From Eledone cirrhosa (taxonomy: Eukaryota): a stretch of 64,000 nucleotides of DNA. The stretch's first letter is position 1. Each line of letters starts with the position of its first letter. The notes under the pieces were generated by a model. It made no database searches. It was not told the origin of the DNA and saw only the letters and a program-made list of their open reading frames with translations. The stretch covers positions 354,516,001-354,580,000 of the forward strand of contig OZ024742.1 in assembly GCA_964016885.1 (NCBI GenBank), read 5' to 3'. Below are positions 2,201-64,000 of the stretch, one piece after another. The translations under genes were made by a program, and so were the position numbers.

Positions 2201-2266
<66 letters not shown>

Positions 2267-2327
2267 CCCAAGGCTCTGCTACTATCAACACTATAAACAC
2301 AGATCTGGCATATCTAAGAACTGACTA

Positions 2328-2383
2328 ACTGCCTGATGAGGTCATAGCCATTTACTGGCTATCATCGAAATATACATAGCAGT
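2328..2383 (+). ncRNA. Type I hammerhead ribozyme (H3)
   Basis: ACTGC-CTGATGA-GGTCATAGCCA(TTTAC)TGGCTATCATC-GAAA-TATACA-TA-GCAGT: all core nucleotides present, helices I and II pair, AUA site. Confidence 0.85.
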
Positions 2384-2423
2384 AAATAAAGGATTATGAG
2401 TTCATGCAATTGACTTATGTTTC

Positions 2424-2469
<46 letters not shown>

Positions 2470-2501
2470 GAAACATAAGTCAATTGCATGAACCTTTATT
2501 T

Positions 2502-2557
2502 ACTGCTATATATATTTCGATGATACCCATTGAATGGCTATGACCTCATCAGGCAGT
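2502..2557 (-). ncRNA. Type I hammerhead ribozyme (H3, inverted copy)
   Basis: Minus strand ACTGC-CTGATGA-GGTCATAGCCA(TTCAA)TGGGTATCATC-GAAA-TATATA-TA-GCAGT. Confidence 0.8.
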
Positions 2558-2617
2558 TAGTCAGTTCTTAGATATGCCAGCTCTGTGTTTATAGTGTTGA
2601 TGGTATCAGAGCCTTGG

Positions 2618-2653
<36 letters not shown>

Positions 2654-3778
2654 GCAACCTTTCAGGGTGTGGCTCAATGACGAATTAATTAATTAAATAA
2701 TCAACAATCAGAGCAATATATAAGAAAGTAAGTCCAGAGAATCATTTGATAAAATATATACAGTATTTCTTCTCCCAATCAGCTCCCATAGCTCTATCTA
2801 GTTTATGTATATGTAATCCTCTATATTTGATATACTCCCGTAAGGTTGATTGAAACTTTAGGCTGTATTCGGCTGCGCTCTCCAGCAACCAGCCTATTCG
2901 CCGTCAGGCACCAATCACAATATTTCTGACCTGACCACTAGCCATGTGACAATTCTTAGTCATTTTGAATTCGTTTCTGGCGGGGATCATTTAAGAAAAA
3001 TCTCTGTCCAATTGAGTTTGTTTCCTGATGATTTTGAAACTTGTTGATTTATCCATGATCGGATATTTCCGAAAAGCGAATGAAATCTTCGGGGGTAGAA
3101 CCATGAATTGGGGTATGTTTATGTACAGCTTTTCTTCTAACTTTGAGTTTGTACCTAATTGTGTGTGGTTAATTATATGTCTAGTCAATTTCTAAGGGCT
3201 ATTACAAATACTGGGTAAAACCTCTGTGGCTTTGGATCGCGGATAACATAGCTATCATTTATTTATCTATTGTTTCTTCATAGGTACATTTTAAACTTAT
3301 AGACTCGATTAATTGTTTTTTTATGTGGTTCATTATGCTGATTGGGAGAAGAAATAATGTATATACTTCAGGAAATGATTCTATAGACTTACTTTCTTAT
3401 ATATATATATAATATTATTAATAACATTGGATTCGTTTTCAATTATGTAAACACCCTCAATTTTAAAGCCATGTCAGTGGAATGGACACTTCATCTTGCT
3501 CTTGTGTTTGCATGTAAACAGAACTGTAGACATTAACGTTTCTGGGTATCACCCTCCATCAGTACAGCTCACTGTTCACCTGCCAACTGTCAGATATAGT
3601 GAAAATATATGCTACTTTCAAACTTATACAGTGACTGAATGGCCTGATTTGCATATTAGCAGACTGGCTGATCAGTCACACCTGCATATTAGCAGGTCCA
3701 TTGATCAGCCAGATTTCCATATCAGCAGACTAGCCAGCATTCTCCTCTATACGAGCGATAAATGGCCAGATAAGCCAC

Positions 3779-6889: not shown

Positions 6890-6925
6890 TTATTATTATT
6901 ATTATTATTATTATTGTTATTGTTA

Positions 6926-7417
<492 letters not shown>

Positions 7418-7777
7418 GTACTTTCAGTCTCAGTCGTTGATGGTAGTTAACTGGAAAGTTTGTTGAAATGAATATCAAACGACTACCAACAGCCTCAGAT
7501 ATTCAGGACGTATCGGAGGGTTCTTGCTGTTCCCAGCAAGCATGTCTTTTGAAGCGTTCCAAAAAGCGGGGCGGGGCCACATTTTTTTAATCATCCCTAG
7601 AAACCTTTTGAGATAGTACCTAGTGCGCCTATGACAATCGGGACCACTTTGACTTCATGGCAGTTCCAAATCTTTTTTACCTCCAACTTTAAGTCCTGGT
7701 ATCGGTTAATTTTCTACCTCTCCTTCTCTTACATTCTCGTGTCGAATGAGCATATCCACAATCAGGCACGATCTTTT
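7418..7777 (-). mobile_element. 5'-truncated 3' end of R4/Dong-like family B (copy B2)
   Basis: Homologous to B1, but shares diagnostic bases with copy B4 (TGTTGAAATGAAT, GGGACCACTTTG). Confidence 0.9.
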
Positions 7778-7848
7778 TATTATTATTATTATTATTACTA
7801 TTACTATTATTATTATTATTACTATTACTATTATTATTATTATTATTA

Positions 7849-39149: not shown

Positions 39150-40903
<1,754 letters not shown>

Positions 40904-41760: not shown

Positions 41761-41783
41761 TATGCATGCATATATATATAAAA

Positions 41784-42298
41784 TAATTAAGTCAAATATG
41801 TAAAATTTGGCTTCGTTTATTACCAATTATAGATATAGTGGTATATATATTTCGGTGACAGCCATCATTGTCTGTGGTCTCTTCAGACAGTCATAATTGG
41901 TGTGGAAGGACAGGTCCACATGTTGTTGAAGTGCGTTTTAATCCAGCAATACGTCGATATGTCTAGCTCCTGCTGTTGTTGTTATTTCTCTGAGGAATTG
42001 GAATCATATGAGTTAGAGCAAAGAAGTTTCGGCGTCATAGGACACGTCGTATCCCATTGGTCAGTTGTGAGAACATTCCTCAGTCAAAAGTCTATAGAAA
42101 TCTTTCTGTTGTAGTAGAGTTTGTTTAGGTACAGGTGACCTCCTCCATTGTGTTGGTAGTGGTAGTGGTGTATGGTTGTTTACTGAGACCTCAGTAAGCA
42201 CATTGGAGCACTCGACGAGGTACGCAATTTGGTTGGTTTACTCCGGAATAATGTAAAATATTTAAGTCAAAGATGTAAAATGTGTCTTGTTTTATCAC
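41784..42298 (-). repeat. H3-related hammerhead repeat: one ~475-bp monomer plus terminal redundancy
   Basis: AAGTCAAA(T/G)ATGTAAAAT recurs at a 475-bp spacing (GTCAAA at 41791 and 42266). Hammerhead 41837-41891 (-): CTGAAGA-helix II-GAAA-TATATA-TA, helix I partly decayed. Confidence 0.75.
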
Positions 42299-42496
42299 AA
42301 CATATACTCAAAATGTATATATATATATATATATATATATAAATATACACGGGTGTGTATGATTGCGTATAGAAGATTATATCAATAAAAGCAATTACAA
42401 CTTTGTCTGGTTTATTCGTTATATTTACAATCCTCTTAAATTATAATGATATTATAATGAAATAATATGGTAGAATATTAAATGTTAAGTGTTAAT

Positions 42497-42937: not shown

Positions 42938-43228
42938 TTATTGTTCATTTAGCTTGGGTTCAAATTTATAAATAAAATGATTTTCTTTATTTTTTCTCTT
43001 GACTTCACTTGGGCTGTGTAATTTGTAGAATGGAAATATTATAAATATTCTCTGACCACATGTTGCTAGATGGTTACTCAGGGGTATCTGACGGACATGT
43101 GTGTCTCTGCTTTGCTGTCGGTGCACCCGTGCACGTTGCGATAGTGCATTTCCAGTTTGACCGACATACAGTTCTTCACAATTCGGGCATTTAATGCAGT
43201 AAATTATATTTCTGCTTTTGCAGTTCAT
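42938..43228 (-). pseudogene. GIY-YIG endonuclease domain of the PLE
   Basis: IIYCIKCPNC..LYVGQTG..RARVH..HL..E..FI...PKLN. Confidence 0.9.
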
Positions 43229-43673
43229 ATTTGCATTTGGGAATATTTTTCCAGTGTTTCGTGTTCATATATCGACCAGTGCGTATGGATTGACATGTGA
43301 CACATCGACTATCATTGCATTTAGATACAGCGAATGATTGGTCTTTGTTGTTAAGGTCAAACTTTGCCTTTGTTAGTAATTGCTTCAAAATTGTCGGCTG
43401 TCTTTTACTAAGCATCAAAGCTCGTTCTGTGATTAAACCTTTTAATTCATTACTTTGAGCAATGGTTGGTAGGTTTGCTTTGGCAGTGTTGAAGATATTC
43501 TGGTGACATGGGTTGTGTGTCATTATAAATGGTATGACCACTTCTTGGTTTCTTCTTCCTTGGGTTGTCTTAATTTGTTGTGTAGGTATTTTTATAGCCC
43601 GCTGTATAACATTTTCTATAAGTAGAGATGGATATTTTTGTTTGAGCAAACATTCTCTCAGTTCTGTTAGGCG

Positions 43674-44118
43674 TAAAGGAAAATAATGTTTGTCGATGAA
43701 TGGCCAATACATCGTTTCCCTTTGTAGAAATAAATGACTCCAGAAGGGGGGGGGGTTGAACAGTAAAAAATTAACGATCCTTTATTAAAATGCGACATTT
43801 AATAAATTATGTACAATGTCAATTCAAACATACCTTGTGGGTTAATAGAAGTAGTGTAATTATATTCTCCGGTGCAGAAATAACGAAGGAATAAGCGAAT
43901 GCCTATTAGTCGAGATATCGTGGCGTCCTTGATCCGAAGGAGGGCATTTTCACATAGTCCCTCACGAAGCGAGCATGGTCAATATTTTTTTGAGGAGCGA
44001 ATCCTTTCACGTCTGTTTATGTCCGCGTCTGTGACCGGATGTATCTTGCCTCCGCTCTCTGAAGCGTTGTTATGGGGAGGCAACTGCTAGTTGCTAAGCG
44101 ACCATCTCAGTCAATACA
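43674..44118 (-). repeat. 3' LTR
   Basis: Direct repeat of 48893-49342 with scattered substitutions. Confidence 0.95.
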
Positions 44119-44570
44119 TTCACCTCGGAACAGATTTTTTGTCGAAAAATCGTTAACGATGAAGCGAAGGACCCACGAGGTAGTTTACAAAATGTAGAAG
44201 CATGTATCAACAAATTATGAAAAAAAGAAATAGGTTCATGTCTGCAAGCATTAACACAGAAAAAATGTACAGCAAAAGATGCAAAATGCATGAAAAGATA
44301 ACACTCTTCGCAATAAAGGGGCTCCAAATGCGATAAACAAAAAAAAATTATTTTGCTAGGCAATGAAAATGCCATATGTAGCATAGCTGTAAAAATGCGC
44401 TAAAAAAAAATGGATTGTGTCAGAATTGACAACAGTCGTAATGTTACGAAAAATAACATATATTGACACTGCCGTAGGCAGTCAGGAATCAAAAAGCAAC
44501 ACAATGAAATATACAGCAAAAACAATTGGAAGAAGAAAATAATACAATTCAGTTTATATCACTGCATAGC

Positions 44571-47500
44571 TTACGGGGCAAATGCACCCTTCGCCCAGAA
44601 CGGGTCGTAGCTCTGTATGTTGATGGTAGGGGGGGGAGAAGAAATAGGCGTATGTGGCAAAGAAAAAGAAAGGGGCATTTGAGTTTCAAGCGTCATTGTG
44701 TCATTGTCCAGGTTTGCTCGTTTGAGACGATCAAATGAAACCGTTTCCCTGGAACCCCGAATGTCCAGTGTGAAATGTTTGTCTGTGCGAGCAAGCACAC
44801 GATAGGGTCCAGAGTACGGCCGTTGAAGAGGGGGTCTCACGGCGTCGTCTCTAACGAACACATGTGTCCACAAGGCAATATCCATTGGGACGGCAGTTTT
44901 TACAGTTTGCTTCCTAGTGTCCATCGGTGGTAAATCCTGGAAGTAAGAATGAAGCCGGGACACGTAGGAAGCGGGATTCTGCGAAGCAAGATCAACAGGA
45001 GGAAGCATTTGCCCCGGAAACGCAAGAGTAGTACCATAAATCAATTCGGCCGGGGAGAACCCAAGGTCCACCTTTATTGTCGACCGAATACCTAACAACA
45101 CAATAGGTAGGTACTCACTCCAACGTGAAGAGTCCATTGAAGCCCTTAAAGAGGCTTTAAGCTGTCTATGAAATATTTCCACCATTCCGTGTGATGCTAT
45201 ATGATATGCCGTGGTTCTTATGCGAGTAGCGCCAATAATTTGTGTTAATTCACGGAAGAGGTTCAATTCAAATTGACGACCGCGGTCTGTTGTTATTGTG
45301 GTTGGTACTCAAAAACGAGCGATCCATGCAGATACGAGAGTACGCGCTGTCGTTTCAGCAGTGATATCAGTCATAGGGAGGGCTTCAAGCCAACGCGAAA
45401 AACGGTCAACGATCGTCAACATATACGAATAACCACGACTAATCGGCCACGGGCCGACGATGTCCACATGAATGTGACGAAATCTGGCATCAGGACAGGT
45501 GAAAGTTCCGAGAGGAGTTTTAATGTGCTTATGAGCTTTTGACTTTTGGCAAGCGACACAGGAACGGCACCAAGCAGCAATGTCACGTCTCATATCAGGC
45601 CAGACAAATCTGGATGTTATGAGTTTTACTGAGGCTGATACTCCTGGGTGAGAAATGCCATGTAAAGCGAGAAACATAGTTCGTCGATGACCAACTGGGG
45701 CGAGAGTTCGTGGTGAGTCCAAGAGATATCACATAGTATCTGTCCGTCAGTGGTTGATAAAGGAAGGTATTTCATATTGCAGTTAATGAACTCCGGCGAT
45801 GTGCAATCCAAAGATTCAAGCGAGGGTTGGTCAATGGTCAATTGACGCAAATCTATATCGTTAGACGACGAGATCGAAGCTATCGGGAGGCGAGACAACG
45901 CGTCTGCCGCAGTATTCAAAGCACCCGGAATATGTTGAATATCATGTGTGTATTGGGAAACAAAATCCAGATGTCTAGTTTCCCTAGGCGAATAGTTGTC
46001 AGATGTTGATCTTAAAGCGAAAATCAACGGTTTGTGATCTGTGAAAATAGTGAACGCTCTCCCGTCCATAACATGGGAGAAATGTTTCACAGATAAATAA
46101 ATTGCTAAAAGCTCACGCCCGAAAGTACTATAACGATTTTCAGCAGGCTTTAGCTTTCTGGAAAAAAATGCCAGTGGTTGTTGTAAACCATCGCACTTCT
46201 GTTGCAAGACTGCGCCCACGGCGGTATCCGACGCATCAACACAGAGCGATAGCTCGGCGTTGGGTACTGGGTGGGCGAGCAAAGACGCGCTCGCTAACGC
46301 CTTTTTCACTTTTTTAAAATCCTCAAGCTGCGTTTTATTTAAGGAAATGTCCATATTCTTACGCCGGCAATTTTTAAAAATTTCTGTCAACGAGAACAGC
46401 AAGTTGGAACAATTAGGCACGAATCGCCTGTAAACAATTTACAAGGCCTAAGAATTGACGTAATTGTCGCAGTGAACTTGGCGGAGGCAAATCCGATACT
46501 GCCTTAACCTTCTCAGGAAGAGATCGAATACAACCGGCGTCAATCAGATGGCCTAAAAATGTTAGTGAGGTGGAGCCGAAAACACACTTGGAATAATTAA
46601 TACGAACATTATATCTCTGTAAACGACGTAATACAAGATCCAGATGCTTGGAATGTTGTTCAGAAGAACTAGCAATCAGTACATCATCGATATACGTGTA
46701 AAGAAAATCGAGACCACGAGTGACATCATCCATGAATCGTTGGAGGGTACTTGCAGCATTTCTAAGTCCGAAAGGCATAGTGAGGAACTCGAATGATCCG
46801 AAAGGAGTGGCAATAGCAGTCTTTGGAATATCCTCCTTTTTAACCGGAATTTGATTATAAGCGCGGACCAAATCAAGCTTAGAAAAGATTCTGCAACCCT
46901 GCAATGACGATGCGAAATCCAGCAAATGCGGTATTGGATAACGGTCAGGCACAGTAATCGCGTTTAAGCGTCGGTAGTCAGCCGTCGGTCACCAATCACC
47001 AGAAGATTTAAGTACCATATGTAGAGGCGATGCCCAAGGACTTGTGGAACGCCGAATTAATCCTAATTCCAGCATGTGGTCGAATTCAAGACGTGCAGCT
47101 TTCAACTTCTCTGCAGATAATCTTCGAGGACGTGAGAAAACAGGTGGACCTGTAGTGGATATAAAGTGTTCAATCACATGATCCGGACTAGCAATTCGTA
47201 ATCTTCCTTGCGTCAGCTGTGGGTATGATTTTAACAAACTGTGATACTGGCTGCCCACTTCAGCCAAGAGAAAAGCAGGGCTTACTGTGGCGTTCTCCGG
47301 CTTTGTACCCTCGAACGATAGGCCTGTATTAGCTAAAAAAGTCGTTGTCTGCGGATGTCAATCGACAAGGAAAAATGGTGGAGGAAATCCGCTCCAAAAA
47401 TGGCGTATGGCAAGTCGGCGATAGCAAACTTCCACTTCCATTCACGACGCAAATGTTTAAATCGAAGAGGAAGCGAAATGTGCCCGTACGTTCGAATGGC

Positions 47501-47630
47501 CGTGTTGTTGATTGCTCGTAAATTAATATTTGATTCAGATGGGTTTTTTTTTGAGATAACTGACTGGCCAAATACTTAGTGACGCGCCAGTGTCGACAAG
47601 AAACATTTTTTGACTGCAGATCGTACACAA
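44571..47630 (-). pseudogene. pol: Gypsy pol (protease, RT, RNase H, integrase), frameshifted
   Basis: FLVDTGAS (~47580-47605), [71 protein letters not shown]. Confidence 0.93.
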
Positions 47631-47699
47631 AAAATGACGGTTTGGTCGAGTTTCCCAGAGTTCACTAGCCGCCCCTAGTGGCTCAGATTGGCGTTTTCC

Positions 47700-48500
47700 G
47701 AACTCCTATAGTTACAAGACGCCCGACTACCTAAGTTAACATGATACCAACAAATCCAAGAATTACTGCTGCTTGAAGTGTAGTGTTGGCGAGGAACAGA
47801 GACGGTGGCGAACGGTACTCGTAGCGGTTTCGAGGAATAGCAGACGGTGGCGAACGGTACGTTAAACGTTGAGAAGGCTCTCTGTGTTGTACGGTCAAAT
47901 CCTCCACTTTTTTGGTGAGCGCTTCGATCATCTCCAGCAGTTTGCTGTCGGCCACAGAAGAATTGTGTGGGGGAACAGAAGAAGAAGCCACACAAGGACT
48001 ATGCCGACTGCTGTTAGAGTCCACCTCTAGTATTCTATCCGCGGTTGCGGCAAGTTGATCTAACGACTCCCTCTCCAAATTATTGACAAAGACCATTTGC
48101 GCACTTGGCGGTAAACGGGAGAAAAATAGCTGTTTAATGAAAGATGTATCAATTCCTTGGGAGTCGCTCAACTCACGTGATGTCACAAATAGGAGGTTGG
48201 CGTTCTGTCACCCATCCTGGCATCCTCCAATAATTCCCGAAAACGGCTCTCCACAGACCTAGTATTCCTACGAAGAATTTCTAGTTTTAATGAGCCATAG
48301 GTTACATCTTCAGCTAAATTCGTTATAACATCCTTTACGGAATATGCCAAAGAAACAGGCATGCCGTTAATAAGCACCTTCAATTTATGCTGATTTTTGG
48401 TTTGGGTCAAATCGAAATAGAACTCGAGCTGCGAAAACCATAATTTGATGTCGCCTGCGAAGGTCGGAAATGATGTGGATTCATGATAACCGAAGGTTTG
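47700..48500 (-). pseudogene. gag: Gypsy gag remnant
   Basis: LWFSQLEFYF (~48415-48445), GDRTPTSYL, LFFSRLP and LAATADRI motifs upstream of the protease. Confidence 0.8.
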
Positions 48501-48875
48501 AAGAATCCAAGATGGCCGGTTGAGAAAAAAAAAATGCTTTTGATGAAGACGCCCTCACGTGGCACGATGCAGCCAATCAGATTGCTGGGATTGAAGAAGA
48601 TACACTGTGCGCGGGAAAACCGCAAAAGGAAGAAGACACGCAGAATGGCGGGAAAATGTCGGCCATTTAAAAAATGTTCATGAGGAAATGACGGTGAAAA
48701 TCAGGAAAGAAAAAATGTTCACAGTGTAAACAGAGAACAGAGTTTAGAAAACTTGTTTTCCTTCTTCCTTTTTAGAAGGCTTGCATTTAAGAGTTTTTTT
48801 TGTTTTTTTTGGAAAAGTTTTGGATTCAAACCAAAGAAATTTTTTTTTTTTTTAAAGTATCCGCGTATTGGGAAT

Positions 48876-48891
48876 AACGCCAGGGTCACCA
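48876..48891 (-). promoter_or_regulatory. Primer binding site (tRNA-Trp-like)
   Basis: TGGTGACCCTGGCGTT one base inside the 5' LTR; resembles the complement of the tRNA-Trp 3' end (TGGTGACCCCGACGT). Confidence 0.75.
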
Positions 48892-48892
48892 A

Positions 48893-49342
48893 TAAAGGAA
48901 AATAATGTTTGTCAATGAATGGACAATACATCGTTTCTCTTTGTAGAAATAAATGACTCCAGAAGGGGGGGGGGGGGGGGTGAACAGTAAAAAATTAACG
49001 ATCCTTTATTAAAATGCGACATTTAATAAATTATGTACAATGTCAATTCAAACATACCTTGTGGGTTAATAGAAGTAGTGTAATTATATTCTCCGGTGCA
49101 GAAATAACGAAGGAATAAGCGAATGCCTATTAGTCGAGAGATCGTGGCGTCCTTGATCCGGAGGAGGGCATTTTCACATAGTCCCTCACGAAGCGAGCAT
49201 GGTCAATATTTTTTTGAGGAGCGAATCCTTTCACGTCTGTTTATGTCCGCGTCTGTGACCGGATGTATCTTGCCTCCGCTCTCTAAAGAGTTGTTAAGGG
49301 GAGGCAACTGCTAGTTGCTAAGCGACCATCTCACTCACTACA
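48893..49342 (-). repeat. 5' LTR
   Basis: Begins TGTAGTGAG and ends CCTTTA on the element strand. Confidence 0.95.
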
Positions 49343-50370
49343 GGCGTTTTTTCCTGGTATTCGTATCTTCTACAATGGTACAAATTCTTCTGGCTAGGCA
49401 GTATGCGATGTTGCGTTTTGTATGAGGTGGATAACACGTCTTAAAATTCAGATATTGATGGGTGTCTGTGTGTTTATAATTTACAGCAGTGTTAATGGTG
49501 GTGTCGTTTTTGATTATCATTATATCTAGGAATGGTAATTTCGTACTACTCATCTCTTACGTGAATTTGGATATATGGGTGTAGGTTATTCAGGGGGATA
49601 TTGAACTGATCCAGAGTATCTAGAGATTCTGTTCAGATGATGAAACAGTCGTCAAGGTATCTCTTCCAAGACTTTTCAAAGTCAGTGCTATATTTTTCCT
49701 CTATTCCTTGGTAGAGTTGTTGTTTTAAGTATCCCATTACAGAGTTCGCGTAAACGGGAGCAAACTTCGTTCCCATCGCTGTGCCTCTAATTTGGATGTA
49801 ATTCTTTCCATTGAAGAAGAAAGTGTTCTTTTCCAGAATAAGTTTGACTGCGACTAATATAAATGATGCTGTGAATCTGGTGGGAATCATTTCTCTATGT
49901 TTTTCAACCCAGTATTTAACCACCTTTATTCCTAAATCATGTGTAATGTTGGTGTAAAGGCTTACCACTTCAAAACTAAGTAGAAGTGAATTCGTTTCCG
50001 GGGTTTGGGGTAGATGTTAAAAATAATGCTAACAAGAAAAGAAAAATAATATACACAATACCAAAAAAAGAACTAATTAATTATTATTAATAATGGTATA
50101 TCGTGCAATGGCCTTACTCGAGAACGAGGGTGGGGGGACGTTTTTCGAAATATATACTACTGCGTTCACATATTGATTTATTTAGTTTCAGAAGATCTCG
50201 TTAAGGGAAAAAGCAGATATTCTTTGCTTTAACTTTAATCTGTTATTTTAATAAATATAAATATGGCAGCGATAATGAGGGACAGAGACCGCTGGAGAGA
50301 ACTCGTCCATGGATCTCGGGAATTTTACCCACCCTAGAGAATATATATATATATGTGTGTGTGTGTGTGT

Positions 50371-51601: not shown

Positions 51602-51765
51602 TTATTAAAATAACATTTTAGAGTATATGCAAAGAATCCCGCTTTCACCCTTAACGGGATCTTCTGAAACTAAAAAAATCAATCTGTGAACACAGTGGTA
51701 AATATTTCTAAAAACGAATTAAACGATTCTTTGCTTAAACTTTAATCTGTTATTTTAATAAATAT
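51598..51765. repeat. Short (TA)n-anchored dispersed repeat (also ~50165-50257, 61905-62025, 63922-64000)
   Basis: Shared TATTTATTAAAATAACAGATTAAA...TTTCACCCTTAACGGGATCTTCTGAAACTAA; this copy has an inverted terminal duplicate. Confidence 0.85.
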
Positions 51766-51865: not shown

Positions 51866-52057
51866 ACAAAGGTGTTCCCCCGAAAAACCAGTATGACTCT
51901 AAAAACCGGTTTGTCTGTGTGTTTACATACAGAATAGCTGGGCCGCTCACTGTAAAGCGACCAGCGAAAGACTTGGTACACCTACATATGTATACGTGTG
52001 TGTATTCATATACACACTAGTATTTCAGTATGCATATGTAGATGTACATTTTTAACT

Positions 52058-52061
<4 letters not shown>
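51866..52061 (+). repeat. Diverged partial copy of the 466-bp monomer
   Basis: Aligns with 54792-54982 (AAAGGTGTT...CCAGTATGACTCTAAAAACCGGT...GTACATTTTTAACTTAA). Confidence 0.85.
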
Positions 52062-52127: not shown

Positions 52128-52499
52128 GTAAAATAAAGTTAAATAGAAGTCAAATGATTAAAATTTAGCTTCGTTTATTACTGCTATATATATTTCAGTG
52201 ACAGCCATCTTTGGCTGTGACCTCTTCAGGCAGTTTGAATTAGTATGGTATAGACAAGTACATATGTTGTTTAGGTGTATGATATTGTCAATACTCTGAT
52301 ATGCCCAGTTCCTTGCTGGGTTGTTAATTCACTGGGGAACTGGAGTATAGCAGTAATAAACGAAGCTAAATTTTAATCATTTGACTTTTATTTAACTTTA
52401 TTTTACACTACTCCGGAGTAACCAAACCAACCTGCGCACTTCGTCGAGTGCTCCAGCCTGCATACTGAGGTGTTGGTATACAACAAACATAAACTCAAA

Positions 52500-52500
<1 letters not shown>
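52128..52500. repeat. H3-related repeat with an internal inversion
   Basis: 52128-52188 is the reverse complement of 52346-52406; remaining segments match both ends of 41784-42298. Confidence 0.85.
52180..52234 (-). ncRNA. Type I hammerhead ribozyme (H3-related)
   Basis: ACTGC-CTGAAGA-GGTCACAGCCA(AAGA)TGGCTGTCACT-GAAA-TATATA-TA-GCAGT; helix II covaries with 2328-2383 (T-A to C-G). Confidence 0.85.
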
Positions 52501-53359: not shown

Positions 53360-53438
<79 letters not shown>

Positions 53439-53725
53439 AATAACGAAACGAAATTAAATTTCGTTTCATTTGTAACTCACTTTTGTATGACTGACGCTTA
53501 AACAATTAAGTTAAAAATGTACATCCACATATGTATACTGAAATACTAGTATGCATATGAATACACACGCGTGTACATATGTAGATGTACCGACTTTTTC
53601 ACTGGTCACTTTACTGTGAGTGTCCAGCTATTCTGTATGTAAACACACAGACAAACCGGTTTTTAGAGTCATACTGGTTTTTGAGGAAACACCTTTCCTC
53701 TATTCTCCAGAAAGCCAGACAAGGG

Positions 53726-53768
53726 ATATTGGACTAGTTTCGATGTTGTTACATCTCATCAGCAATAT
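53726..53768 (-). ncRNA. Type I hammerhead ribozyme, intact consensus
   Basis: ATATTG-CTGATGA-GATGT(AACA)ACATC-GAAA-CTAG-TC-CAATAT: perfect helices I and II, GUC site, palindromic helix III. Confidence 0.93.
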
Positions 53769-54191
53769 TTACCTATCTTCCGGCCTTTCTAGAGAATCGT
53801 GAAAGCACATATCGTTATATGCTTATTCTATGAAAATTAGTAGTGGGCAGACCAATTTGCATAGAGCGTGAGTACGTACCGGTTCAACGGAGACGATAAA
53901 AACAAATAACGAAACGAAATTAAATTTCGTTTCGTTTGTAACTCACTTTTGTATGACTGACGCTTAAACAATTAAGTTAAAAATGTACATCCACATATGT
54001 ATACTGAAATACTAGTATGCATATGAATACACACACGTGTACATATGTAGATGTACCGACTTTTTCACTGGTCACTTTACTGTGAGTGTCCAGCTATTCT
54101 GTATGTAAACACACAGACAAACCGGTTTTTAGAGTCATACTGGTTTTTGAGGATACACCTTTCCTCTATTCTCCAGAAAGCCAGACAAGGG

Positions 54192-54234
54192 ATATTGGAC
54201 TTGTTTCGATGTTGTTACATCTCATCAGCAATAT
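54192..54234 (-). ncRNA. Type I hammerhead ribozyme (second unit)
   Basis: As 53726-53768 but with CAAG in helix III. Confidence 0.9.
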
Positions 54235-54719
54235 TTACCTATCTTCCGGCCTTTCTAGAGAATCGTGAAAGCACATATCGTTATATGCTTTTTCTATGAA
54301 AATTAGTAGTGGGCAGACCAATTTGCATAGAGCGTGAGTACGTACCGGTTCAACGGAGACGATAAAAACAAATAGCGAAACGAAATTAAATTTCGTTTCG
54401 TTTGTAACTCACTTTTGTATGACTGACGCTTAAACAATTAAGTTAAAAATGTACATCCACATATGTATACTGAAGTACTAGTATTCATATGAATACACAC
54501 AAGTGTACATATGTAGATGTACCGACTTTTTCACTGGTCACTTTGCTGTGAGTGTCCAGCTATTCTGTATGTAAACACACAGACAAACCGGTTTTTAGAG
54601 TTGAACCGGTACGTACTCACGCTCTATGCAAATTGGTCTGCCCACTACTAATTTTCATAGAAAAAGCATATAACGATATGTGCTTTCACGATTCTCTAGA
54701 AAGGCCGGAAGATAGGCAA

Positions 54720-54762
54720 ATATTGCTGATGAGATTTAACAACATCGAAACTAGTCCAATAT
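54720..54762 (+). ncRNA. Type I hammerhead ribozyme (inverted unit)
   Basis: ATATTG-CTGATGA-GATTT(AACA)ACATC-GAAA-CTAG-TC-CAATAT. Confidence 0.88.
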
Positions 54763-55020
54763 TCCTTGTCTGGCTTTCTGGAGAATAGAGGAAAGGTGTT
54801 TCCTCAAAACCAGTATGACTCTAAAAACCGGTATGTCTGTGTGTTTACATACAGAATAGCTGGACACTCACAGTAAAGTGACCAGTGAAAAAGTCGGTAC
54901 ATCTTCATATGTACACGTGTGTGTATTCGTATGCATACTAGTATTTCAGTATACATATGTGGATGTACATTTTTAACTTAATTGTTTATATATATAAATG
55001 TTACACATAAACACACACAA

Positions 55021-61902: not shown

Positions 61903-62168
61903 TTATTTATTTATTAAAACAACAGATTAAAGTTGAATCAACGAATTGCTGTTTTCACTGTTAACGGGCTCTTCTGAAACTAAAAAGATCAATCTGAACC
62001 CAGAAGTAAATATTTCGAAAAACGTTGCAACCGAAGGACAACAAGAATACGATAATTTGGTTTGTGAATACGTTCCTTCTCAATTAACGGAAAAAAAGGG
62101 AAGATAATACGTCATTATATGGAACGCTGATCATTATATGCTTATATATATAAGTGTGTGTGTATGTG

Positions 62169-62203
<35 letters not shown>

Positions 62204-62429
62204 AGTATGCATGTATACGTACATACATATATGTATACAGACGTACAGTAGCATGCACATATATATATATATATACATATATACATACAGGTACACATAC
62301 ATATATGCACGTATCAGTTTAGCGGCGCTAACGTCGCTTTGTTCGTTTGTAAACAAACTGAACAGCCTGAATTTATGCCATACGGTGTTAAGGCAACCAC
62401 GTCACCTTTTTGTTCAACACTGACACAGG

Positions 62430-62474
62430 AACGATGTACTAGTTTCAAGCTTGTTAGCTATCATCAGCATCGTT
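62430..62474 (-). ncRNA. Type I hammerhead ribozyme
   Basis: AACGATG-CTGATGA-TAGCT(AACA)AGCTT-GAAA-CTAG-TA-CATCGTT: GUA site, U.U mismatch at the base of helix II. Confidence 0.88.
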
Positions 62475-62885
62475 TACCCATCTGCCAGATAGTTGAACGT
62501 TCGAAAGTATATACTTTCCTTATGAAAATTAACGGCTGAGCAGCCTAATTTGCATATTGAGTGAGTTAAATCGGTCAGGCATACCGAAAACGATAAATTG
62601 AAACAAAATGAAAACGAAATTTCATTTCTCACTCTTAGTATGGCACTTACTTAAATGTAAGTATGCATGTATACGTACATACATATATGTATACAGACGT
62701 ACAGTAGCATGCACATATATATATATATATACATATATACATACAGGTACACATACATATATGCACGTATCAGTTTAGCGGCGCTAACGTCGCTTTGTTC
62801 GTTTGTAAACAAACTGAACAGCCTGAATTTATGCCATACGGTGTTAAGGCAACCACGTCACCTTTTTGTTCAACACTGACACAGG

Positions 62886-62930
62886 AACGATGTACTAGTT
62901 TCAAGCTTGTTAGCTATCATCAGCATCGTT
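62886..62930 (-). ncRNA. Type I hammerhead ribozyme (second unit)
   Basis: Identical to 62430-62474. Confidence 0.88.
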
Positions 62931-63529
62931 TACCCATCTGCCAGATAGTTGAACGTTCGAAAGTATATACTTTCCTTATGAAAATTAACGGCTGAGCAGC
63001 CTAATTTGCATATTGAGTGAGTTAAATCGGTCAGGCATACCGAAAACGATAAATTGAAACAAAATGAAAACGAAATTTCATTTCTCACTCTTAGTATGGC
63101 ACTTACTTAAATGTAAGTATGCATGTATACGTATATATATATATATATATATATTTGTCCACATGTCAAAAACAACGCATCCTAAGATTTATGGCTTAAC
63201 GAACGCTTCAAACAAGAGTAGCTTTGGAAGACAGGCAGACAGTCGTTCATGCATTCATGCATATATGCACAGGACGATTTCACTGTATGAACGATAAACG
63301 TTGTCTTGTAAATAAATCAATTTTATGATGGATAACGAAACAATGAGCGATGACTACAGAATATCACGTTGAACGAACTTGGCATATATCACAAGGAATT
63401 GGGAGATATTCACACAACATCAGCGACGGGCTTACATATTGAAGCATATCTGAGGATATTTTGATTCCAGAGACAGGTTCGATTAATAATATATATTTCG
63501 TCAAGCTGAATGACAGGGAAACATATGTA

Positions 63530-63928: not shown

Positions 63929-64000
63929 TAAAATAACAGATTAAAATTTAAGCAAAGAATCGCTGCTTTCACCCTTAACGGGATCTTCTGAAACTAACAA

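What the first reader, a model, noticed from the sequence alone, without database searches (positions are those of the whole stretch)
62201..63132. Second, very recent 456-bp hammerhead dimer
Seen: two units identical by eye, including the length of an internal (TA)n run, plus ~20 bp of a third. Each has AACGAUG-CUGAUGA-UAGCU(AACA)AGCUU-GAAA-CUAG-UA/CAUCGUU. Inference: identity of the units fits a single rolling-circle copying event or a very recent duplication. The U.U pair at the base of helix II departs from the usual purine-pyrimidine pair and may slow cleavage.
Basis: partly seen in the sequence, partly recalled or inferred. Interest (0 to 1): 0.7.

Follow-up and report, generated by a model that had tools for sequence, protein, structure and literature searches.

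The report
Young hammerhead retrozyme dimer in microsatellite
Two identical 456-base repeats inside a TA microsatellite each carry a hammerhead ribozyme motif and belong to an abundant repeat family of a known kind (animal 'retrozymes'), which is likely cut out as small RNA circles and likely copied back into the genome by Penelope-like jumping genes; the odd U-U pair is already known from other hammerheads.

Summary
Observation confirmed. Positions 62199-63133 hold 2.05 identical 456-bp units (0 of 479 differences), each with a minus-strand type I hammerhead, between two (TA)n tracts. The unit is about 60% identical to the window's 466-bp family, with 7 of 21 hammerhead pairs changed on both sides. 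It is very abundant in public reads, and the excisable monomer folds far better than shuffles. This is a new member of the animal non-LTR retrozymes. The U10.1-U11.1 pair is not new (Perreault 2011; axolotl HHR_Amex2, efficient as a dimer), and a deep contig from a second sample carries it. Cleavage, expression, circles and the dimer in long reads are untested. Rolling-circle copying cannot be told from copying of an uncut multimer or from local duplication. The one fresh lead is that three of four RNA-sense 3' ends of both families fall within about 9 nt of one site. The sister family's end motif matches (18/22) the TA-abutting end of a Penelope-type repeat nearby. This suggests fixed internal priming by a Penelope-like reverse transcriptase; the sample is small and the test post hoc.

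The parts
62199..63133 (-). Whole insertion: 2.05 identical 456-bp units; RNA-sense 3' end at 62199-62201, 5' end at 63133
62437..62892 (-). The one complete cut-to-cut monomer (456 nt), the predicted released RNA; linear fold -148.5 kcal/mol, z -7.7, 0 of 100 shuffles as good; circular fold -144.2
   Evidence: release is predicted
62876..62946 (-). Upstream type I hammerhead: helix I with internal loop, CUGAUGA (62923-62917), helix II with loop (U)AACA(A), GAAA, predicted cut between 62893 and 62892 (GUA^)
62420..62490 (-). Downstream identical hammerhead; predicted cut between 62437 and 62436
62903..62916 (-). Helix II with U10.1 (62916) and U11.1 (62903) at its base; G-C in the sister family, so both sides differ; same at 62447-62460
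   Evidence: second-sample contig 18 of X7
62894..62899 (-). Palindromic helix III ACUAGU (1-2 bp as a monomer, 6 bp if paired with the copy at 62438-62443)
   Evidence: sequence; duplex -4.8 kcal/mol; dimer pairing inferred from PMC4209133
62668..62772 (-). Alternating purine-pyrimidine tract predicted to form a long hairpin (also 62212-62316); the array's 5' end falls in its 3' arm, where it resembles (TA)n
62521..62556 (-). Conserved block TATGCAAATT...TAATTTTCATA (also 62977-63012): among the longest identical runs between the two families; the two arms pair as an RNA hairpin; contains a perfect octamer ATGCAAAT
62171..62200 (.). Left (TA)n tract abutting the RNA-sense 3' end
63132..63154 (.). 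Right (TA)n tract abutting the 5' end; a target-site duplication cannot be read inside TA
53433..54988 (.). Homologous 466-bp sister family: 2.5 units (minus, 53433-54601) joined to an inverted partial unit (plus, 54600-54988), both outer ends at (TA)n; G-C helix II base
51868..52060 (+). Fragment of the sister family ending at a (TA)n tract
41781..42315 (-). Repeat with a Penelope-type minimal hammerhead; holds the only two non-family matches of 17/22 or better to the sister family's 3'-end motif (41801, TA-abutting, 18/22; 42276, 17/22)
   Evidence: link to a Penelope ORF not shown
43043..50016 (-). Broken Penelope-like ORF in two parts (50016-49371 and 43649-43043) matching an RT + CxxxRCxxC + GIY-YIG protein

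Best explanation
This is a young insertion of an abundant animal non-LTR retrozyme family: 2.05 identical hammerhead-bearing units inside a TA microsatellite, whose minus-strand transcript is predicted to cut itself as a two-unit ribozyme and likely to be circularised, and which was likely copied into DNA by a Penelope-like reverse transcriptase. Shown: identity, motif, compensatory pairing against the sister family, abundance, TA flanks, and Penelope-like remnants in the same window. Inferred steps: (1) read-through transcription of the minus strand; (2) the two ACUAGU palindromes pair to make a 6-bp helix III, so cleavage needs both units, and U-U slows but does not abolish it; (3) the 456-nt monomer is ligated by a host ligase, as shown in vitro for axolotl and mussel; (4) a Penelope-like endonuclease nicks (TA)n, reverse transcription starts at a preferred internal site just 3' of the purine-pyrimidine hairpin, runs twice round the circle and ends in that hairpin, where the copy resembles (TA)n. 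Family membership about 0.9; the whole route including a circular template about 0.6.
For: 0 of 479 differences. 8 descriptor hits against 0.01 by chance. 7 of 21 pairs change on both sides against the sister family, 82 of 84 cells pair, 0 of 500 shuffles reach this, and slid controls pair 33-44% (in effect two lineages). Helices I and II form in both units of the array transcript (5 of 6 helix I pairs 0.79-1.0, the core-proximal one 0.58; helix II pairs 0.91-1.0). Monomer z -7.7. The two families are 298 of 490 columns identical, score 331 against shuffled 124+/-12, and start at different phases, so the unit is circularly permuted. Depth over the unit in X1 is 2.6e5-1.4e6 (bins 62772-63122) against 6 for a single flank contig, and 138,891 of 12,467,656 X21 reads were laid. 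4 of 4 RNA-sense 3' ends abut (TA)n, 3 within about 9 nt (simulated p about 0.004), all 4 within 75 nt (p about 0.017). The inverted segment in the sister array is a Penelope hallmark (PMC8557442). Two internal start sites with no homology to the target were shown for a Penelope-like enzyme (PMC11167929).
Against: No cleavage or circle was shown here. Rfam does not list the 456-bp motif. It has both a weak helix III and U-U, whereas axolotl HHR_Amex2 pairs U-U with a stronger helix III. 8 of 9 Xenopus retrozyme dimers gave no cleavage product in vitro. The Penelope-like enzyme used uncut RNA and did not need the ribozyme. The 18/22 end motif belongs to the sister family; this family has only ACAT...ACTTA. 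ACTT occurs in the last 25 nt of 13 of 88 TA-flanking ends against 8.7% background, so it is barely enriched on its own. BLASTN found no longer similarity to the Penelope-type repeats (best E 0.027). The end clustering is post hoc, and two of the four ends come from one array.
Confidence: 0.6

Rival explanations
1. Same family and same Penelope-like enzyme, but the template was a linear, uncut read-through transcript of an already tandem source locus; the weakened ribozyme hardly cuts and no circle is needed.
For: In vitro the Penelope-like enzyme starts internally on unprocessed RNA, and ribozyme mutants insert normally (PMC11167929). The hammerhead has two weakening features. A young source array would also give identical units, and 74,251 of 138,891 X21 reads are 99% or more alike over their laid part. 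Preferred 3' ends fit equally well.
Against: Compensatory changes in three helices and an intact core across about 40% divergence imply selection for cleavage. The monomer is strongly self-paired, like known circles. Linear copying cannot lengthen arrays.
Confidence: 0.2
2. A 1.05-unit insertion was later doubled in DNA by unequal exchange or slippage between its 23-bp terminal repeats, or older units were homogenised by conversion.
For: Identity is equally expected; 23-bp direct repeats flank a 1.05-unit form; Li et al. discuss local amplification of such repeats.
Against: The sister array (2.5 units plus an inversion) looks like a single multi-unit insertion; 23 bp is a short substrate (general knowledge). 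Even 1.05 units needs a circular or multimeric template.
Confidence: 0.12
3. The second unit is an assembly duplication; the genome holds one unit here.
For: Perfect identity. could not test the junctions, because 62655-62761 and 63118-63164 were skipped as repeats, only contigs and 150-nt reads were available, and only one unit was laid.
Against: The window has no N and resolves a 1.5-kb (TA)n tract, which suggests long reads (inference). The sister family has diverged tandem units. The junction sequence aligns with the interior of the sister unit. About 52,000 X21 reads have a median 50-51 loose letters before 63073/63074, which fits a start at the GCATGC site of a following unit (enzyme inferred); this shows the junction sequence in the family, not at this locus.
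Confidence: 0.04
4. The conserved octamer block is a DNA promoter element, so that the unit is self-transcribed like newt satellite 2 (snRNA-type promoter); this can be true alongside the best explanation.
For: A perfect ATGCAAAT lies in all 5 full copies of both families, within one of the longest identical runs. Newt satellite 2 has an snRNA-type promoter (one sentence in PMC2220036).
Against: The two conserved runs pair with each other as an RNA hairpin in both families. The spacing to the hammerhead differs by 13 nt between families. The octamer is not enriched in the window (10 against 5.8+/-2.5). A review states that retrozymes seem to lack promoters (PMC7761336).
Confidence: 0.15

Closest known systems
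Metazoan non-LTR retrozymes (Cervera & de la Pena 2020, PMC7229834; Li, Clavereau & Pollet 2026, 10.64898/2026.07.22.740005)
   Same: Non-coding tandem units with one type I hammerhead each, GC under 50%, high copy number, strongly self-paired monomer, co-occurrence with Penelope-like elements; meets Li's 'two consecutive complete hammerheads, MFE below -5' rule.
   Different: 456 bp is just above the 150-450 bp quoted in 2020 and inside Li's 51-972 bp. Insertion into (TA)n and clustered 3' ends were not reported in the parts I read. Circles and cleavage are untested here.
Axolotl HHR_Amex2 / Rtz_353 and HHR_Amex1 (PMC7229834)
   Same: U-U at the base of helix II (Amex2); single pair plus palindromic tetraloop in helix III (Amex1).
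   Different: Here both weakening features are in one ribozyme. No sequence comparison with the axolotl repeats was made.
Canonical metazoan type I hammerheads acting as dimers (PMC4209133)
   Same: Helix I 6 bp, helix II 4 bp, helix III 1-2 bp with a small palindromic loop.
   Different: U10.1-U11.1 instead of G10.1-C11.1.
Penelope-like elements with endonuclease (Neptune/Nematis/Naiad TA targeting, PMC8557442; anole PAc internal initiation, PMC11167929)
   Same: Microsatellite insertion, inverted truncated segment, two preferred 3' ends.
   Different: No ORF; canonical rather than minimal hammerhead; the two end sites are about 60 nt apart rather than a 30-40-bp tail; no extended similarity to Penelope-type repeats in the window.

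Membership tests
Type I hammerhead ribozyme | Core CUGAnGA, GAAA, UH with A15.1-U16.1 | tested here: met
   CUGAUGA, GAAA, GUA in both units
Type I hammerhead ribozyme | Helices I and II form and are conserved by pairing | tested here: met
   two lineages only
Type I hammerhead ribozyme | Usual G10.1-C11.1 pair (common, not obligatory) | tested here: not met
   U-U; known tolerated natural variant
Type I hammerhead ribozyme | Rfam hammerhead model at gathering score | tested here: not met
   none at gathering score; sister family 31.9-36.1 bits to HH9, this family not listed
Type I hammerhead ribozyme | Self-cleavage at the UH site | not testable with these tools
   needs an in vitro assay
Non-LTR retrozyme | Tandem units of a few hundred bp, each with a complete type I hammerhead | tested here: met
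Non-LTR retrozyme | Non-coding, low GC, no LTR arrangement | tested here: met
   no ORF of 120 aa or more at the locus; GC 0.34; PBS and PPT were not searched for separately
Non-LTR retrozyme | Many genomic copies | tested here: met
   summed contig depth is not a copy number, only an order of magnitude
Non-LTR retrozyme | Highly self-paired monomer | tested here: met
   z -7.7, partly owing to the purine-pyrimidine tract
Non-LTR retrozyme | Expression as linear and circular monomer RNA | not testable with these tools
   no suitable RNA run was available
Non-LTR retrozyme | Target-site duplication (when present) | tested here: inconclusive
   both ends lie in (TA)n
Non-LTR retrozyme | Co-occurrence with Penelope-like elements | tested here: met
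   ORF remnant matching an RT + GIY-YIG protein; minimal hammerheads
Penelope-like element pseudo-LTR | Adjacent RT-GIY-YIG ORF and minimal hammerhead | tested here: not met
   no ORF beside the array; canonical hammerhead
Newt satellite 2 type snRNA promoter | Functional octamer plus proximal element driving transcription | tested here: inconclusive
   octamer conserved but explained equally by an RNA hairpin; host snRNA promoters were not available

The most novel reading that the evidence does not exclude
These retrozymes carry a short cis signal, shared with this genome's Penelope-type repeats, that makes a TA-targeting Penelope-like reverse transcriptase start at one of two fixed internal sites on the RNA circle. 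That would name the helper enzyme of an animal retrozyme and show rolling-circle copying with a fixed start, where a 2020 review says that metazoan retrozymes show no motif pointing to their helper. The doubly weakened (U-U plus palindromic helix III) ribozyme would act as a dimer-only switch that spares the circle.
Probability: 0.3. Interest if true: 0.6.

Novelty: new member of a known kind. Interest (0 to 1): 0.3.

Why it matters
As flagged, it adds one more retrozyme family and one more U-U hammerhead, both known kinds. Its value is as test material. An intact two-ribozyme locus in a young, very abundant family, with TA-flanked ends that can be mapped genome-wide, could settle two open points: which retroelement mobilises animal retrozymes, and whether the template is a circle or an uncut multimer.

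Tried and rejected
No whole genome is held, so copy number, end positions and U-U frequency could not be counted genome-wide. The look-up of sequencing runs: 23 runs listed, no RNA holder listed; this is no evidence on expression. In one search the TA-rich junctions were skipped, and no head-to-tail or empty-site joint was among the 15 joints shown (93 hidden). X21 joints and loose ends fall at AATT sites and were rejected as library chimeras. The end of X1 contig 4 near the right junction is uninformative. Positions 62903 and 62916 are not among the 40 variant rows shown, but 89 rows are hidden, so family-wide U-U frequency is unknown. Family pattern: 0 hits in viral and metagenome contigs. 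U-U pattern: 2 viral and 32 metagenome hits, none with a type I helix I of 5 or more pairs and no family homolog; the G-C pattern gave 8 viral hits, 4 with such a helix. Types II and III were not scored. Nested folding cannot show the dimer helix (probability 0 by construction), and cofolding two 71-nt motifs preferred another duplex (-42.1 against -34.8 kcal/mol), so dimer folding rests on literature. Rfam miRNA hits are TA/CA-repeat noise. No solved structure matched P0001. Earlier-finding look-ups by place and sequence were empty. PMC2837043, PMC544870 and PMC8490949 passages added nothing.

Full report
Observation. The array runs 62199-63133: 479 of 479 bases are identical at lag 456, giving 2.05 units with 23 bp of a third. 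The internal TA run is 17 nt in both units. The hammerhead is on the minus strand, with C3 at 62923 and 62467. My descriptor found 8 motifs in the window and 0.01 per window in 100 Markov controls. Rfam has no hit at gathering score, and its E-value run lists Hammerhead_HH9 only for the sister family. Both ends lie in (TA)n tracts (62171-62200, 63132-63154).

The ribozyme. The unit is homologous to the 466-bp family at 53433-54988 (298 of 490 columns; score 331 against shuffled 124+/-12). Across the four distinct motifs, 82 of 84 cells pair and 7 of 21 pairs change on both sides; 0 of 500 shuffles reach this and slid controls pair 33-44%. This is in effect a comparison of two lineages. The extended helix I, its internal loop and the UAACAA loop are kept. 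In the array transcript helices I and II are predicted in both units. Helix III is A-U, C-G around UA, that is the palindrome ACUAGU. Cervera and de la Pena describe this as the usual metazoan type I form, weak alone and active when two copies pair (PMC4209133). My folds cannot show that pairing, and a cofold preferred another duplex, so this step is inferred. The array holds exactly one cut-to-cut monomer (62437-62892), which folds with z -7.7.

The U-U pair. It replaces G-C on both sides. It is in print: Perreault et al. report natural U10.1-U11.1 hammerheads and call it the best-tolerated mispair (PMC3088659). About 60,000 axolotl HHR_Amex2 motifs have it; they cleave 22% in 1 h as monomers and much better as dimers (PMC7229834). 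It is not private to this locus. X7 contig 18 (another sample; 62892-63013, depth 204) has one difference, and its distance from the contig end places it at 62926, outside helix II (inferred from two tables). The two hammerhead variants shown are mild: 62926 gives G-U in helix I and 62930 lies in the internal loop. 89 rows were hidden. What differs from the axolotl case is that U-U and the weakest helix III occur together.

Abundance and age. In X1 the summed depth at 62926, 62930 and 63053 is 2.9-4.2e5, against 6 for a 471-nt flank contig, a ratio of 5-7e4. The tool warns that this is no copy number, so I read it only as very many copies. In X21, 138,891 of 12,467,656 reads were laid, a share biased by the reduced-representation library. 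Units differ at 0 of 479 sites here and at 10 of 703 in the sister array (p=0.007; upper bound 0.62%). The X1 flank contig differs from the window at 3 of 471, so the insertion may be as young as standing variation, but it cannot be dated. The dimer itself was not tested, because the junctions were skipped.

How it moved. Four RNA-sense 3' ends of the two families abut (TA)n. On this family's monomer they map to 238, 241, 232 and 297; three within about 9 nt has simulated p about 0.004 and four within 75 nt p about 0.017 (post hoc; two ends share one array). One X7 loose end shows a short TA run at about position 294. The sister array has an inverted truncated segment, as Penelope-like insertions do, and these elements often target microsatellites (PMC8557442). 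An anole Penelope-like enzyme nicks AT-rich DNA and starts at two internal sites with no homology to the target, on uncut RNA (PMC11167929). The window holds a broken Penelope-like ORF (47-67% to P0001, RT plus GIY-YIG) and repeats with minimal hammerheads at TA tracts. The sister family's 22-nt end motif has only two non-family matches of 17/22 or better on either strand, both in one such repeat, and one (18/22) is at its TA-abutting end. Against this: the 456-bp family keeps only part of the motif, no longer similarity exists, and that repeat is not shown to belong to the ORF.

Rivals. Copying of an uncut multimer (0.2), later DNA duplication (0.12) and assembly error (0.04) all give identical units. 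8 of 9 Xenopus dimers did not cleave in vitro, so activity is not assured. The conserved octamer block may be a promoter, as in newt satellite 2, but its two conserved runs pair as an RNA hairpin in both families.

Comparison and novelty. The element fits animal non-LTR retrozymes on every sequence feature I could test; circles and cleavage are untested. Penelope-like helpers were proposed in 2020 and supported by Xenopus sequence homology in 2026. A 2020 review says no motif points to the helper (PMC7761336). I found no report of TA targeting or fixed 3' ends for retrozymes in searches or in the passages read; the library lacks most subscription papers.

What I saw of each paper. 10.64898/2026.07.22.740005: parts 1-3 of 5 (abstract to discussion); supplements closed. 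PMC7229834: parts 2-4 of 6 and passages; its supplement, with the model figure and repeat sequences, was unreadable and may bear on targets and ends. PMC4209133 and PMC11167929: parts 1-2 of 4. PMC3088659: passages and section 8. PMC8557442, PMC7761336, PMC2220036, PMC2837043, PMC544870 and PMC8490949: passages. Coats 1994 and Lunse 2017: reference titles only. The restriction-enzyme reading and the R4/Dong, Tx1 and gypsy labels are recalled, not from a call.

Verdict. Real, young and very likely a retrozyme; the flagged peculiarities are known. New member of a known kind, interest 0.3. The end-signal lead deserves a genome-wide count.

Noticed in passing
window 53433-54988: Sister 466-bp retrozyme array, 2.5 units joined 5'-to-5' to an inverted partial unit; the inverted part starts about 11 nt from the phase at which the main part ends. 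One unit has CAAG instead of the CUAG palindrome.
   Followed up: yes
window 2265-2620, 41781-42315, 52128-52500: Repeats with Penelope-type minimal hammerheads (extra base after A9, long helix II, TATATA loop) abutting (TA)n; the pair at 2265-2620 is tail-to-tail around a TA tract; 41781-42315 has about 475-bp terminal redundancy and may be a second retrozyme-like unit.
   Followed up: partly
window 43043-50016: Penelope-like ORF split by an LTR retrotransposon (gag/pol-like ORFs 44571-48554; matching repeats near 43700-44120 and 48900-49340, seen by eye).
   Followed up: partly
window 8197-35000: Stack of non-LTR retrotransposon ORFs beside (TTA)n tracts; two hit Pfam RVT_1; R4/Dong-like and Tx1-like labels are recalled.
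   Followed up: no
window 6890-7848: 493-bp two-unit tandem with (TTA)n at unit boundaries; no CUGAnGA on either strand.
   Followed up: partly
window 50139-50250, 51606-51716, 61915-62024, 63929-64000: Short TA-adjacent repeat family flanking the finding, with CAGAAGA...GAAA around a small hairpin; no helix I found by eye.
   Followed up: partly
window 3556-3760: Repeated ATTTGCATATT-like motifs with a 15/16 match to the octamer block (E 0.09-0.14); probably chance or an unrelated element.
   Followed up: no
window 39360-40900: 1.5-kb (TA)n tract with scattered variants, fully resolved.
   Followed up: no
L005, L006, L009, L010 (match sites): Viral contigs with complete type I hammerheads with an AACA loop and G-C base; L040 and L041 have U-U with four further helix II pairs but no type I helix I.
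   Followed up: no
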